Shown here in pieces: positions 17,589-29,975 of a stretch of DNA of 64,000 nucleotides. Position 1 is the first letter of the stretch. Each line of letters begins with the position of its first letter. The stretch lies in contig OZ024745.1 in assembly GCA_964016885.1 (NCBI GenBank), forward strand, positions 131,316,001 through 131,380,000, in the 5' to 3' direction. Made by a program: the position numbers and the translations under genes. The stretch comes from Eledone cirrhosa. Lineage: Eukaryota. A model generated the notes under the pieces. That model searched no databases, had not been told where the DNA came from, and was given only the letters and a program-made list of their open reading frames with translations.

Positions 17589-18194
17589 TGCATATATATA
17601 TATATATATATATGCACATGTATATATATATATATATATATATATATATATATGTGCATATATATATATATGCACATATATATATATATATATATATATA
17701 TATGCATATATATATATATATATATATGCATATATATATATATATATGCATATATATATATATATATGCATATATCTATATATATATATATATATATATA
17801 TATGCATATATATATATATATATGCATGTATATATATATATATATATATATGCATATATCTATATATATATATATATATGCATATATCTATATATATATA
17901 TATATATGCATATATATATATATATATATATATGCATATATATATATATATATATGCATATATATATATATATATATATGCATATATATATATATATATA
18001 TATATATATGCATATATATATATATATATATATATATATATATGCATATATATATATATATATATATATATGCATATATATATATATATATATATATATA
18101 TATATATATATATATATATGCATATATATATATATATATATATGCATATATATATATATATATATATGCATATATATATATATATATATATGCA
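17589..18194. repeat. (TA)n-TGCA self-complementary satellite, block 1
   Basis: Begins abruptly inside a truncated piggyBac MITE end (17520-17588). Confidence 0.95.
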
Positions 18195-19379
18195 TTGGTC
18201 GTGCTCGGTGTGTAGGAAAGGCGTAGGTAGAAACTCCATTTTATGTCCTAAATGCAAAGTATGGGTGCATAAAAGATGTAGTGGGATCACAGGTAGGCTA
18301 ACTAAGAACATAGATTTTACATGTGGCCGGTGCTCTGGTGCAATAAGTAGCAGCAAGTGCCCACAAAATACTAGCTCTTTCAATTGCGCAGAGGGTTCTA
18401 TAGAAATAGTGGACAGCTTCCGTTACCTGGGCGATAAAATCAGCAGTGGGGGAGGGTGCTCTGAAAGTACTGTAGCTAGAGTCAGAACTGGTTGGAAAAA
18501 GTTCAGAGAGCTTATACCACTATTAGCTGCTAAAGGGTTCTCACTAAAAATGAAAGGCAGGTTGTACGATGCCTGCATACGAACAGCAATGCTGCATGGC
18601 AGTGAGACCTGGGCATTGTGTGCAGAGGATATACGCAGACTAGAGAGGAACGAAGCTTGCATGCTCCGCTGGATGTGTAACAGTAATATACGTGAACGGC
18701 AAAGCATAAACGAACTAAGGAATAAATTAGAGATAAGAGGGATCAGATGTTGTCTACTCGAGAGAAGGCTACGTTGGTATGGACACGTGATGCGCATGAA
18801 AGTCGATAGCTGTATAACAAAGTGCAGGGCAATAAAGATAGACGGTAGTCACGGAATAGGCAGACCTAGAAAAACCTGGGACGAGCTGATAAACTCCGAC
18901 ATCACACACTTACACCTCTCCAAGACAATGTCACTGGACCGAGACCTTTGGCGGTACTCAGTAACAGAGAAGACCCGCCTTACCTAAATATATAGTAAAA
19001 CCTACTCCAGCCAGTAGGCATCTCTAACAAATACACCCCGTCCCACCACCCCCACCCGATCCACACCACCCCGTTCTATGTAAAGTTATGTTGGTGCCGC
19101 GCCATCGAGGCCGAAACAAATGAGATCGTGTAGGTGTCACGACAAAAAAACACACAGTCCACGCTGTAATGTGGCCGTGTAGGCAACACGGTAAAAACCT
19201 CCCAGACCCACACTGTAAATGTGGTTGGTGTTAGGAAGGGCATCCAACTGTAGAAAACCTGCCAGACAGTCCTATGCGAGCAAGACAATCACTCTTGCCT
19301 CAAGTGGGACTACCCCCGTCCAAACCCATGCAAGCGTGGAACACGGACGTTAAACGTTGATGATGATGATGATGATGAT
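18195..19379 (+). mobile_element. 5'-truncated RTE LINE (subfamily B): PHD-like finger, RT C-terminus, 3'UTR and (GAT)7 tail
   Basis: Stop-free [61 protein letters not shown] to the stop at 18987. Confidence 0.93.
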
Positions 19380-19405
19380 ATATATATATATGCATATATA
19401 TATAT

Positions 19406-19650
19406 ATCATCATCATCATCAACGTTTAACGTCCGTGTTCCACGCTTGCATGGGTTTGGACGGGGGTAGTCCCACTTGAGGCAAGAGTGATTGTCTTGCT
19501 CGCATAGGACTGTCTGGCAGGTTTTCTACAGTTGGATGCCCTTCCTAACACCAACCACATTTACAGTGTGGGTCTGGGAGGTTTTTACCGTGTTGCCTAC
19601 ACGGCCACATTACAGCGTGGACTGTGTGTTTTTTTGTCGTGACACCTACA
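19406..19650 (-). mobile_element. Inverted copy of the last ~245 nt of the RTE-B 3'UTR with (GAT)5 tail
   Basis: Reverse complement of 19129-19373 with no visible substitutions. Confidence 0.95.
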
Positions 19651-25700: not shown

Positions 25701-26694
25701 TATATATGCATATATATATATATATGCATATATATATATATATATATATATATATATGCATATATATATATATATATATATATATATATATGCATATATA
25801 TATATATATATATATATATATATATGCATATATATATATATATATATAATATATATATATGCATATATATATATATATATATATATATATATATGCATAT
25901 ATATATATATGCATATATATATATGCATATATATATATATGCATATATATATATATGCATATATATATATATGCATATATATATATATATATATATATAT
26001 GCATATATATATATATATATATATATATATATATCTATATATATATATATATATATATATATGCATATATATATATATATATGCATATATATATATATAT
26101 ATGGATATATATATATATATATATATATATATATATATATATATATATATGCATATATATATATATATATGGATATGCATATATATATATATATATATAT
26201 ATATATATATATGCATATATATATATATATATGGATATGCATATATATATATATATATATATATATATATATATGCATATATATATATATATGCATATAT
26301 ATATATATATATGGATATATATATATATATATATATATATATATATATATATATGCATATATATATATATATATGGATATATATACATATATATATGCAT
26401 ATATATATATATATATATATATATATATATATATATATATATATATATATATATGGATATATATACATATATATATGCATATATATACATATATATATAT
26501 ATGCATATATATATATGGATATATATACATATATATATGCATATATATGCATATATATATATATATATGCATATATATATATATATATGCATATATATGC
26601 ATATATATACATATATATATATATATATGCATATATATATATATATATGCATATATATATATGCATATATATATATATATATGCATATATATAT
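22754..26694. repeat. (TA)n-TGCA satellite, block 4 (~3.9 kb) with TGTA/TTTA/TGGA variant domains
   Basis: Direct inspection. Confidence 0.95.
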
Positions 26695-29547
26695 ATTTTC
26701 CTGGCTGAGAAATGGATCAATAAGACAATAGAGGTAGTTCGAGTTAGTAATCGAATAATTAAGCTTAGATTAGTTGTAGGAAGGAGACTACTGACAATCA
26801 TCTCGGTCTATGCTCCCCAAGCAGGCCTAGGCAAAGATGAGAAAGACTGCTTTTATGAGCAACTTTTGCAAACAACCACAATGACAGAGGACGGAGACAT
26901 CGTTATGCTAGCAGGAGACTTCAATGGTCATGTTGGACAGCTCCAGGATGGTTACACTGGGGTACATGGTGGGCACGGTTACGGTTCAAGAAATGAAGAA
27001 GGAGTGAGACTTCTTGAATTTTGTGATGCAAGTACATTGACTATTTGCAACACAAACTTCCAGAAACCTGCCAATCACCTAATAACCTACAAATCTGGTG
27101 AGCACATAAGCCAGATTGACTTCCTGCTAGTTAGGCAGTGGGACAGGCAGATAGTGTCTAATACCAAGGCATACCCTGGGGAAGAATGTACCCCACAGCA
27201 TAGGTTAGTTGTTAGTGATATCTCAGTAAGCAAGAGATGGAATGAGACATATAGGAAGGTGTGGAGAAGAAAGGTCTGGAAGCTAAAAGACATTTCACTA
27301 AAATTCAAATTTAGGAAAGCCCTTCAAGATGTATATGACGAAAAAGAAGACGATTTAGAGACGTATGACATAGATAATAACTGGAAGTTCTTACGTGACA
27401 ACTTGCTGAAGGCTACTGATGAAACCTGTGGCTGGAGCAGAGCTCCAACCAGACAGAGAGTGACCTGGTGGTGGAACAGCAGTGTAGATAAGGCTATTAG
27501 AGACAAAAGACTAGCATGGAAGGCTTGGAATAAGGGTGGGAGTAGGGAAGAATATACAGCCACTAAGAGAGAAGCTAGACGTCAGGTGTACTTAGCACGC
27601 AGGGAGGCAGAGAGTAGGAGGTTTGCCAATGTTCTGCGACGGGAAGATCAGAGGCGTGCGGTGTTCCACATTGCAAGGCAGTGTGTCAATGCAAATCAGG
27701 ATGTTGTTGGTGATAAATGTGTCCGGGATGATGCCGGTGTACTTAGTGTCACGAATGACCAGAAAAAGGAGGCCTGGAAATGTCATTATGAGAGACTGAT
27801 GAATGTGGAGAACGAATGGGAGAGAGAGAAATTACCCTTGGTAGATCCGACAGAGGGACCAGCTATTGAGATTGACGAATATAGAGTCCAAGAGGCGATT
27901 AGGGAAATGAAAAATGGTAAGGCGGCCGGACCATCGGGAATAGTTGCTGAGATGCTGAAGGCATCAGGGGACGTAGGCACTAAACTGGTTGCACGCATAA
28001 TCAATCAGGCTATATATGGTGGTGTCATACCCAAAGACTGGTGCAGCAGTATTCTCATAAATTGCTACAAAGGTAAAGGGGATGCTTTGGAGAGGAGCAA
28101 TTATAGGGGTATAAAACTGATAGATCAGGTTATGAAAGTGGCAGAAAGGATTTTAGCACAACTAATTAGAGAAAGGGTCAAACTAGATGAGATGCAGTTT
28201 GGTTTTGTGCCTGGGAAGAGTACAACAGATGCCCTCTTCTTGGTGAGACAAATGCAAGAGAGGTTCTTAGAGAAGAATAAGCCACTATACTTAGCCTTTG
28301 TTGACCTAGAGAAGGCCTTTGATAGGGTACCCCGATCTGTCATCTGGTGGTCCCTAAGGAAGCTGGGTGTTGAGGAATGGCTTGTAAGGACAGTGCAAAC
28401 TTTGTACAGAGGTACTCTCAGTAAAGTCAGGGTAGGAATGGAGTTTAGTGAGGAATTCCAGATACAAGTAGGAGTACATCAGGGTTCGGTCCTCAGCCCG
28501 CTCTTGTTCATTATAGTCCTCCAAGCCATAACAGAGGAGTTTAAGACTGGCTGTCCATGGGAACTTCTCTATGCTGATGATCTGGCTCTTATGGCAGAAT
28601 CAGTAGAGGAGCTAGAGAATAAATTCCGGCTATGGAAACAGCAGTTGGAAGCAAGAGGACTGAGAGTAAATCTAGCTAAGACAAAAGTGTTGATGAGTAG
28701 AAAAGAGGACAAAACCCTGATTCCGTCAGGGAAATGGCCATGTTCGATATGCAGAAAAGGAACTGGCATAAATTCTATAAAATGCACACAATGTAGGTCC
28801 TGGGTACACAAGAGATGTAGCGGGATAGCAGGCAAACTAACAGGTAGGGAGAAATATGTATGCAGTAGATGTACAGGGAAATTAGACAGTAGAAGTCGCA
28901 CTGATAGACACATTTTTCAAATGCGAGAGGGCGCTATAGAAGTGGTGGATAGCTTCCGGTACCTAGGAGATCAGATTAGCATGGCAGGAGGGTGTTCCGA
29001 GGCCATAGTATCTAGAATAAGGACGGGTTGGAAGAAGTTTAGGGAGCTGCTTCCTCTGTTGACGAAGAAGGGTTTCTCCCTGCGTACGAAAGGCCGGTTG
29101 TATGATGCCTGTGTGAGGAGCGCGATGCTGCATGGTAGTGAGACATGGGCAGCTACTGCAGAAGATATGCGACGGCTGGAGAGAAATGAGGCAAGCATGC
29201 TCCGTTGGATGTGCAGTGTAAATGTGCGTGAACGACCCAGCATAAATGTGTTGAGAGAGAAACTGTGTCTGAGAGGGATAGAATGTAGTGTGCGGGAGAG
29301 GAGACTGAGGTGGTATGGACATGTGATGCGCATGGAGGATGACCGATGGGTGAAGAAGTGCCAGGAAATGCCATTTGAAGGAAGACGTGGTAGAGGTAGA
29401 CCACGAAAAACATGGGCGGAGGTGGTGAGAACAGACCTCAGATCATTGAAGCTCACGGTGGAGATGATGAGGGACCGTGACGAGTGGAGAGATGCTGTGC
29501 TGAATAAGACCCGTCCCACCCTTGCAAGCAGAGAAAAGCGGACGTAA
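26695..29547 (+). CDS. RTE-clade LINE ORF (~950 aa, N-terminally truncated): APE endonuclease, reverse transcriptase and PHD-type zinc finger
   Basis: EN motifs [21 protein letters not shown] motifs [44 protein letters not shown]-terminal LHGSETW/RLRWYGH/GRPRKTW; no stops or frameshifts. Confidence 0.95.
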
Positions 29548-29562
29548 AATGATGATGATGAT
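26695..29562 (+). mobile_element. Young RTE LINE (subfamily A), 5'-truncated, (GAT)4 tail, inserted in (TA)n-TGCA
   Basis: Intact ORF ending 3 nt before the (GAT)n tail; satellite on both sides. Confidence 0.95.
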
Positions 29563-29975
29563 ATATGCATATATATATATATATATATATATATATATAC
29601 ATATATATGCATATATATATATCTCTCTCTCTCTCTCTATATATATATATGCTTATATATATATATATATATATATATATGCTTATATATATATCTATAT
29701 ATATATATATATATATATATATGCTTATATATATATCTATATATATATATATATATATATATGCTTATATATATATCTATATATATATATATATATATAT
29801 GCATATATATATATATGCATATATATATATATGCATATATATATGCATATATATATATATGCATATATATATATATATGCATATATATGCATATATATAT
29901 ATATATATATATATATACATATATATATGCATATATATGTATATATATATATATGCATATATATATATATATATA
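29563..29975. repeat. (TA)n-TGCA satellite, block 5 (with TGCTT/TCTA variants)
   Basis: Direct inspection. Confidence 0.95.

What the first reader, a model, noticed from the sequence alone, without database searches (positions are those of the whole stretch)
17589..29975. Self-complementary (TA)n-TGCA satellite acting as a landing pad for young retroelements
Seen: ~7.3 kb of a satellite in which every unit is a dyad (TA repeats plus TGCA), interleaved with five inserts (RTE-B +, RTE-B tail -, PLE module -, RTE-A 3' -, RTE-A long +). The three coding RTE inserts are stop-free, whereas every RTE copy outside this block is decayed. All tails read (GAT)n directly into ATAT, and two 5' junctions fall right after TGCA (18194, 22753). 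Inference: a coupled system in which RTEs target or prime on cruciform-prone TA/TGCA arrays while insertion, repair or RT slippage expands the array. TATG|CATA is also the junction that a fold-back would create.
Basis: partly seen in the sequence, partly recalled or inferred. Interest (0 to 1): 0.72.

Follow-up and report, generated by a model that had tools for sequence, protein, structure and literature searches.

The report
Retroelement pile-up in TA satellite
Five young, truncated jumping-gene pieces sit in an expanded TA repeat punctuated by TGCA; these families end next to TA repeats all over this genome and are not enriched beside TGCA, so the block is likely an ordinary pile-up in a large target rather than a special landing pad.

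Summary
The anatomy is real: 7.3 kb of (TA)n array, mostly TGCA-punctuated, holding four young RTE-like LINE pieces and one likely Penelope-type end. The special claim fails. (GAT)n tails run into ATAT at 82,857 places genome-wide (76-fold over the reversed control). TGCA follows only 0.48% of them, against about 0.69% of all ATATAT sites (ratio 0.70). Long pure TA is under-represented after tails (16% against 32% per position). Four tails are observed where 1.5-3.6 are expected from the block's TA content. A non-dyad TGTA array elsewhere shows the same pile-up. Variant units cluster in runs far from inserts, so the array likely grew by local slippage or unequal exchange, not by the retroelements. 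One oddity remains: the two RTE-B tails have identical arms around a perfectly palindromic 26-nt TGCA spacer, unlike 39 of 39 other tail-to-tail pairs. That pair may be a fold-back duplication, a symmetric cut, or an assembly artefact. Read data could not test the assembly. The scan found the same kind of pile-up before on other DNA of this genome (e1-10311960). TA-biased insertion is in print for RTE (Tn-TA) and Penelope-like elements.

The parts
17516..17588 (.). End of a high-copy interspersed repeat forming the left flank of the array
   Evidence: Hits in 8 or more fetched loci; very high read depth at 17500-17599
17589..18195 (.). (TA)n-TGCA array, segment 1 (607 bp)
18196..19379 (+). RTE-B, 5'-truncated: PHD plus C-terminal ORF (263 aa, stop-free), about 390-bp 3' UTR, (GAT)7 tail; 18-nt duplication-like match at its two junctions
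   Evidence: 99.8% to nearest fetched copy
19380..19405 (.). Perfectly palindromic 26-nt spacer, (AT)6-GC-(AT)6, between the two RTE-B tails
   Evidence: perfect palindrome radius 29 at centre 19392/19393
19406..19649 (-). RTE-B 3' UTR piece with (GAT)5 tail; body 100% identical to the plus copy; 30-nt palindromic duplication-like match. Second insertion or fold-back duplication
19650..21481 (.). (TA)n-TGCA array, segment 2 (about 1.83 kb), with a run of five TGCAA variants
21482..21657 (-). 3' end of a likely Penelope-like element (pseudo-LTR piece)
   Evidence: 99.4% to other copies; 27 of 29 other copies end in TA at one of two fixed points; flanking ORFs show RT- and GIY-YIG-like motifs by eye, no Pfam hit
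21658..22128 (.). (TA)n-TGCA array, segment 3
22129..22752 (-). RTE-A 3' fragment (201 aa, stop-free), (GAT)5 tail, 97.9% to the long copy, hence an independent insertion
22753..26696 (.). Array segment 4 (3.94 kb): TGCA units, a 488-bp TGTA/TTTA stretch, and a run of TGGA variants
26697..29562 (+). RTE-A long copy: 949-aa open frame, AP-endonuclease (N-terminus missing), RT, PHD; stop followed at once by the (GAT)n tail
   Evidence: 99.4% to nearest fetched copy
29563..29976 (.). Array segment 5, with a run of four TGCT variants and a short (CT)n
29977..30075 (-). End of a repeat family with a hammerhead-like core motif (CTGATGA...GAAAC) that ends in TA in other copies; a sixth TA-associated insert
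   Evidence: the motif label is recalled, cleavage not tested

Best explanation
The block is an interrupted (TA)n microsatellite that likely grew to 7 kb by local slippage or unequal exchange and was then hit several times by very abundant young retroelements whose ends lie next to TA all over this genome. Shown: the anatomy, the genome-wide link between (GAT)n tails and ATAT, the absence of TGCA enrichment, and clustering of variant units. Inferred: the RTE endonuclease nicks alternating TA, and the terminal AU of the (GAU)n RNA tail pairs with the nicked strand to prime reverse transcription, leaving a duplication of about 10-30 nt. Inferred: the Penelope-type and hammerhead-bearing ends use their own TA-biased machinery. 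TGCA is likely just the interruption this particular array happened to amplify.
For: 82,857 tail-ATAT junctions against 1,088 for the reversed control. TGCA within 14 nt: 200 of 41,391 forward tails (0.48%) against 491,122 of about 7.1e7 ATATAT sites (0.69%; ratio 0.70, range 0.51-0.90). TGTA: 8.0% at tails against 7.5% background. 0 of 90 RTE-B ends near TGCA, 13 near TGTA, 11 near TACA; 2 of 29 other RTE-A ends have any TATGCATA in the next kb. Expected tails in the block 1.5 (per tract), 2.4 or 3.6 (per TA base); observed 4; P 0.06-0.48. The same anatomy occurs in non-dyad TGTA arrays at C1:11.51-11.53 Mb. Variant interruptions cluster (0 of 3,000 permutations) and equal-length neighbours are in excess (P 0.002). 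All four RTE inserts have 18-30-nt duplication-like junction matches.
Against: The genome-wide rate mixes old and young copies; with an assumed 15,000-25,000 young tails the block is a tail event (P 0.001-0.025), though tens to hundreds of such clusters are then expected genome-wide. The 8.3-kb TACA array in the same window has no internal insert (P 0.06-0.09). The RTE-B pair has identical arms around a symmetric dyad, seen in 0 of 39 other tail-to-tail loci. Two of 4 5' junctions lie within 2 nt of an interruption, against 1 of 20 elsewhere. Background denominators rest on a 400-kb sample (40 x 10 kb). Duplication-like matches carry little information inside a TA array.
Confidence: 0.78

Rival explanations
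1. Coupled system: RTEs target cruciform-prone TA/TGCA dyad arrays, and insertion or RT slippage expands the array.
For: TGCA arrays keep the full hairpin energy of pure TA (-32.2 against -31.7 kcal/mol per 100 nt; TACA array -15.3). Four young RTE tails here and none in the TACA array. Two of 5 GC-containing duplication-like matches are symmetric about the dyad (window RTE-B minus, L193). One duplication is about one array unit long (median unit 24 nt).
Against: No TGCA enrichment (ratio 0.70). Long TA is under-represented after tails. Long arrays are not over-represented beside young tails. Four duplications add about 4 of some 260 units. Other kb-sized TGCA arrays carry only older RTE relatives (74-92% identity; C2:65.63 and 65.65 Mb).
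Confidence: 0.08
2. Same passive pile-up, but the minus-strand RTE-B piece is a fold-back (template-switch) duplication of the plus copy centred on a TGCA dyad, so only three RTE insertions are independent. This is compatible with the best explanation; within it I put fold-back or artefact against a second insertion at about even odds.
For: Arms 230 of 230 identical, spacer a perfect palindrome, 0 of 39 other tail-to-tail pairs at 99% or more.
Against: The tails differ (7 against 5 GAT units). 7 of 30 other RTE-B copies carry the identical 220-bp arm. A 30-nt duplication-like match fits an ordinary insertion. Tail-to-tail pairs are common (about 1,626 genome-wide).
Confidence: 0.4
3. The block, or part of it, is an assembly artefact: contigs or chimeric reads joined through TA repeats.
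For: No read or contig spanning the block could be shown. The perfect inverted repeat at 19134-19649 is the kind of structure that fold-back chimeras make (recalled).
Against: Each segment has its own clustered variants and only three parity breaks. Junctions are clean with matching flanks. The block lies inside a 135-Mb scaffold. Similar blocks occur elsewhere.
Confidence: 0.1

Closest known systems
RTE-clade LINEs and SINEs with the Tn-TA insertion signature (Nishiyama and Ohshima 2018, PMC6007223: abstract and Discussion read; Nakatsuka and Ohshima 2026, PMC13295347: abstract and Results read)
   Same: Single EN-RT ORF, microsatellite 3' tail, insertion at TA, and a proposed role of tail-target pairing in priming.
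   Different: Here the targets are long TA microsatellites, the tail is (GAT)n, a PHD finger follows the RT, and the inserts in this block have no upstream T-stretch.
Penelope-like elements with (TA)n insertion bias (Craig et al. 2021, PMC8557442, passages); two RT start points in PLEs (Frangieh et al. 2024, PMC11167929, passages)
   Same: TA-flanked ends, two alternative fixed 3' ends, tandem and inverted copies.
   Different: Only a 175-bp end is present here; the clade was not determined and Pfam gave no hit on the flanking ORFs.
Microsatellite-associated or -targeting elements in general: lepidopteran RTEs (Tay et al. 2010, PMC2887409, abstract); Micron MITE in rice TA repeats (review PMC3812793, passages)
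   Same: Mobile elements accumulate in or beside simple repeats; slippage is the standard route of repeat growth.
   Different: This host array is several kb long and carries a dyad interruption; no paper found or 73 describes a (TA)n-TGCA satellite.
Octopus RTE LINEs (Petrosino et al. 2022, PMC9115989, passages; O. vulgaris repeat annotation, PMC13282606, passages)
   Same: Recently active RTE and Penelope-like families; a single ORF of about 1,100 aa ending in a microsatellite.
   Different: That this genome is an octopod is my inference from size and repeat content; identity with RTE-2_OV was not tested.

Membership tests
RTE-clade LINE | Single ORF with AP endonuclease followed by RT | tested here: met
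   Exo_endo_phos_2 (E 1.8e-5, just under its cut-off; N-terminus truncated) and RVT_1 (E 7e-30) in one frame; top relatives are mostly 900-1,130 aa on 3-4.5-kb contigs
RTE-clade LINE | Short 3' UTR ending in a simple repeat, no poly(A) | tested here: met
   RTE-A stop is followed at once by (GAT)n; RTE-B has about 390 bp of UTR and then (GAT)n
RTE-clade LINE | RT phylogeny inside the RTE clade | not tested
Tn-TA signature RTEs | Duplication starts in TA | tested here: met
   53 of 90 RTE-B tails are followed by AT, 31 by ATAT; 76-fold genome-wide excess over the reversed control
Tn-TA signature RTEs | T-stretch about 10 nt upstream of the duplication | tested here: inconclusive
   TTT in 7 of 30 copies with a match of 8 nt or more, against 6.1% control; some of the 30 lie in one 18-bp satellite and are not independent; absent at the four inserts here
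Sequence-specific (TGCA-targeting) retrotransposon | Most copies in one target sequence | tested here: not met
   0.5% of tail-ATAT junctions have TGCA within 14 nt, below background
Penelope-like element | RT plus GIY-YIG ORF adjoining the terminal repeat | tested here: inconclusive
   Long ORFs with RT-like and GIY-YIG-like motifs flank the module in other copies (motifs read by eye and recalled); no Pfam family at E 0.1
Penelope-like element | Tandem or inverted copies, two alternative 3' ends | tested here: met
   Paired and inverted hits; 14 and 13 of 29 copies end at two fixed points, 2 run on into a next ORF
Penelope-like element | Hammerhead ribozyme in the pseudo-LTR | tested here: inconclusive
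   No hammerhead family among 59 Rfam matches at E up to 10; the motif scan found no core in 21482-21657
Cruciform-forming AT repeat | Extrudes a cruciform in vivo | not testable with these tools
   Only single-strand hairpin energies were computed

The most novel reading that the evidence does not exclude
Self-complementary TA/TGCA arrays extrude cruciforms that are cut symmetrically at their base or fold back during repair. This creates palindromic retroelement pairs such as the RTE-B hairpin here, and abortive retrotransposition that duplicates about one unit at a time feeds array growth, so that RTEs and dyad satellites drive each other locally even though RTEs show no genome-wide preference for TGCA.
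Probability: 0.08. Interest if true: 0.62.

Novelty: new member of a known kind. Interest (0 to 1): 0.2.

Why it matters
As it stands it is a clean example of a known tendency: RTE and Penelope-like elements collect in TA microsatellites, so long arrays become graveyards of young inserts. It matters as a caution for reading local clusters as targeting systems. If the cruciform or fold-back reading held, it would link retrotransposition to the birth of palindromes and to satellite growth, and give a simple nicking assay to test it. The one lead worth keeping is the roughly 8-fold genome-wide excess of tail-to-tail RTE pairs.

Tried and rejected
TGCA-specific targeting: rejected. A cruder background, the ratio of 15-mer counts TGCA/TGTA of 0.047 against 0.062 at tails, gave a 1.3-fold excess; I set it aside because the patterns are not matched and TGTA units pack more densely. 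The matched pattern gives 0.70. Long-TA (cruciform) preference: rejected per position, neutral per tract; old, decayed sites may lower the tail figure. 5' junctions fixed after the interruption: not general, 1 of 20. Symmetric duplications about TGCA: 2 of 5 GC-containing cases, not more than chance by a rough estimate (15 of the 30 tail-plus-TGCA loci had too few homologues or a 5' end outside the locus). RTE-A minus and plus as one twin-primed event or a duplicate: rejected, 97.9% identity and two tails. Reads: Logan contigs and RAD reads cannot span the repeats; only 16900-17226 of the left flank was covered by one unique contig. DNA search with the RTE-B tail returned nothing because common words are skipped; replaced by a pattern search. 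Rfam gave only TA-repeat miRNA look-alikes far below threshold. Lag-1 correlation of unit lengths was nil (r 0.002). My recollection that the anole PLE paper invokes cruciforms was wrong (0 occurrences). Ten other window ORFs gave one weak Pfam hit (DUF4695); no host gene was established. Supplements of the papers were not read.
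Full report
Setting. The window is G000:C5:131316001-131380000 of a 3.0-Gb genome in 1,796 contigs. From size and repeat content I infer an octopus-like animal; this was not tested. The window is rich in TA-based arrays.

Observation. The block is as described in outline: six array segments of 7,304 bp in all and five inserts. RTE-B plus spans 18196-19379, RTE-B minus 19406-19649, a likely Penelope-type end 21482-21657, RTE-A minus 22129-22752 and RTE-A plus 26697-29562. 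The long copy encodes a 949-aa frame with AP-endonuclease, RT and PHD matches. It lacks at least 75-93 N-terminal codons present in three other copies, so it is dead on arrival. Each insert is 98.7-100% identical to its nearest fetched relative. The array is mostly but not wholly dyadic: 206 of 252 units are pure, 256 of 328 interruptions are of the GCA type, and 488 bp are TGTA/TTTA.

Do the elements target TGCA? No. The junction of a (GAT)3 tail with ATAT occurs 82,857 times, against 1,088 for the reversed control. In 39 tail-to-tail loci and in the 400-kb sample most such tails belong to RTE-like ends by eye. TGCATATA follows within 14 nt in 200 of 41,391 forward junctions, 0.48%. The matched background is 491,122 forward sites over about 7.1e7 ATATAT positions (bootstrap 5.2-9.2e7 from 40 stretches of 10 kb), or 0.69%; the ratio is 0.70 (0.51-0.90). 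TGTA follows 8.0% of tails and 7.5% of background sites. Of 90 RTE-B ends (90 of the first 100 places listed, all on the first 18 Mb of C1, about 30 of them in one 18-bp satellite), 0 have TATGCATA within 60 nt. Of 29 other top-scoring RTE-A ends, 2 have any TATGCATA in the next kb. Against my reading: the unmatched ratio of 15-mer counts suggests a 1.3-fold excess.

Do they need cruciform-length TA? The TGCA array does keep the hairpin energy of pure TA, unlike the TACA array. But only 13,372 of 82,857 tails (16.1%) run into 22 nt or more of pure AT, against 31.6% (26.9-36.0) of background positions and 12.4% of tracts. Insertion scales more with the number of tracts than with their length. 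Ageing of old sites may depress the figure.

Is the block a hot spot? At the genome-wide rate 1.5 (per tract), 2.4 or 3.6 (per TA base) tails are expected and 4 are seen, P 0.06-0.48. If only an assumed 15,000-25,000 young copies count, P is 0.001-0.025, but 35-570 such clusters are then expected in the genome. The 8.3-kb TACA array at 38410-46695 has no internal insert (P 0.06-0.09). A TGTA-type region at C1:11.51-11.53 Mb has arrays of 5.0, 1.9 and 0.9 kb interleaved with RTE-A at 95.9% and RTE-B at 99.7%, the same anatomy without dyads. Two other regions with kb-sized TGCA arrays hold only 74-92% relatives, and one region with short TGCA arrays holds five minus-strand tails (loci chosen from match lists, not at random).

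What grew the array? Variant interruptions come in runs (TGCAA x5, TGGA x7, TGCT x4, TGTA x32; 0 of 3,000 permutations as clustered) and equal-length neighbours are in excess (34 of 214 units, P 0.002). This is the trace of local tandem duplication, and it lies mostly far from inserts. Arrays of 300 bp or more follow 8 of 58 young tails (L015 dropped, tail not parsed) and hold 17.5% of background TA bases, so long arrays are no commoner beside young RTEs than their share predicts. The four RTE junction pairs fit duplications of 18-30 nt, about one unit each, or 4 of some 260 units. Such matches are weak evidence inside a TA array. The 5' junction lies within 2 nt of an interruption in 2 of 4 inserts here but in 1 of 20 array-flanked RTE-B copies elsewhere. 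Whether TGCA arose by fold-back, by two substitutions or by capture of the flank (the array starts TATAATGCAT) cannot be told; the other dyad, TACGTA, is about 0.56 times as common.

The one oddity. The two RTE-B tails face each other across a perfect 26-nt palindrome centred on GC, with 230 of 230 identical arm positions and tails of 7 and 5 units. Tail-to-tail pairs are common, about 1,626 (forward count), or 3.9% of junctions against 0.47% if tails were spread evenly. But 0 of 39 other pairs (all distinct loci in the first 100 rows) have arms at 99% or more. Seven of 30 other RTE-B copies carry the same 220-bp arm, so a second insertion from the same young subfamily is possible; fold-back duplication, a symmetric cut at a cruciform base, or a chimeric read are the alternatives. 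One more near-symmetric duplication was found (L193), making 2 of 5 GC-containing cases. Public contigs and RAD reads could not span the repeats.

Mechanism. Most likely (0.78): an interrupted TA tract expanded by slippage or unequal exchange (inferred from the clustering) and then received independent target-primed insertions. The RTE endonuclease likely nicks alternating TA and the AU end of the (GAU)n tail likely pairs with the primer strand (inferred; the model is that of PMC6007223, Discussion). Penelope-type ends arrive by their own TA bias: 27 of 29 other copies end in TA.

Known work. RTE insertion at TA is described as the Tn-TA signature (PMC6007223, abstract and Discussion; PMC13295347, abstract and Results). 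(TA)n bias of Penelope-like elements is in PMC8557442 (passages). RTE-microsatellite association is in PMC2887409 (abstract) and PMC3812793 (passages). Active octopus RTEs are in PMC9115989 and PMC13282606 (passages). Cruciform formation by AT repeats appears in PMC12972899 (search listing only). Searches showed no paper on a (TA)n-TGCA satellite or on tail-to-tail RTE pairs in TA; supplements were not read. Earlier notes of this scan reached the same conclusion on other DNA of this genome; none lay near this window.

Verdict. Real, largely ordinary: a new member of a known kind, interest 0.2.

Noticed in passing
genome-wide; window 19134-19649; L123-L148, L257-L285: About 1,626 tail-to-tail RTE pairs with spacers of 16 nt or less, 3.9% of tail-ATAT junctions against 0.47% expected if tails were spread evenly over ATATAT sites; partners are mostly of different families. 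Suggests re-use of good sites or a preference for tail-adjacent TA.
   Followed up: partly
window 38410-46695: 8.3-kb TA array with TACA interruptions that flips to TGTA polarity at about 40600-41430 and back, i.e. an internal inversion; no internal insert; an 85% RTE-A relative at its right edge.
   Followed up: partly
window 29977-30075; L149, L177, L183, L185, L196, L247, L254: Repeat end with a hammerhead-like core motif that ends in TA and often forms head-to-head inverted pairs in other loci.
   Followed up: partly
window 26698-29544: PHD finger between the RT and the C-terminal region of both RTE families; common among the 120 listed relatives.
   Followed up: no
L203-L232 (G000:C1 about 7.4-9.6 Mb): About 30 RTE-B copies sit in an 18-bp satellite, most at one phase and one orientation; already noted by earlier findings.
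   Followed up: no
L005, L017: Two RTE-A copies carry an internal 80-bp tandem repeat from the coding 3' region.
   Followed up: no
L084, L085, L078, L079, L081, L002: Each TA-based array has its own private interruption, some dyadic (ACATGT, ACATATATGT); at L084 the duplication-like match equals one whole 27-29-nt unit.
   Followed up: partly
window 52631-53326 (-): 230-aa open frame with a DUF4695 match (E 9e-8); possibly a host exon or a low-complexity hit.
   Followed up: no
window 3309-4098, 7069-7925, 12359-12931, 33624-34200, 56333-59537: Further minisatellites of 29, 16, 38, 15 and 19-63 bp period.
   Followed up: no
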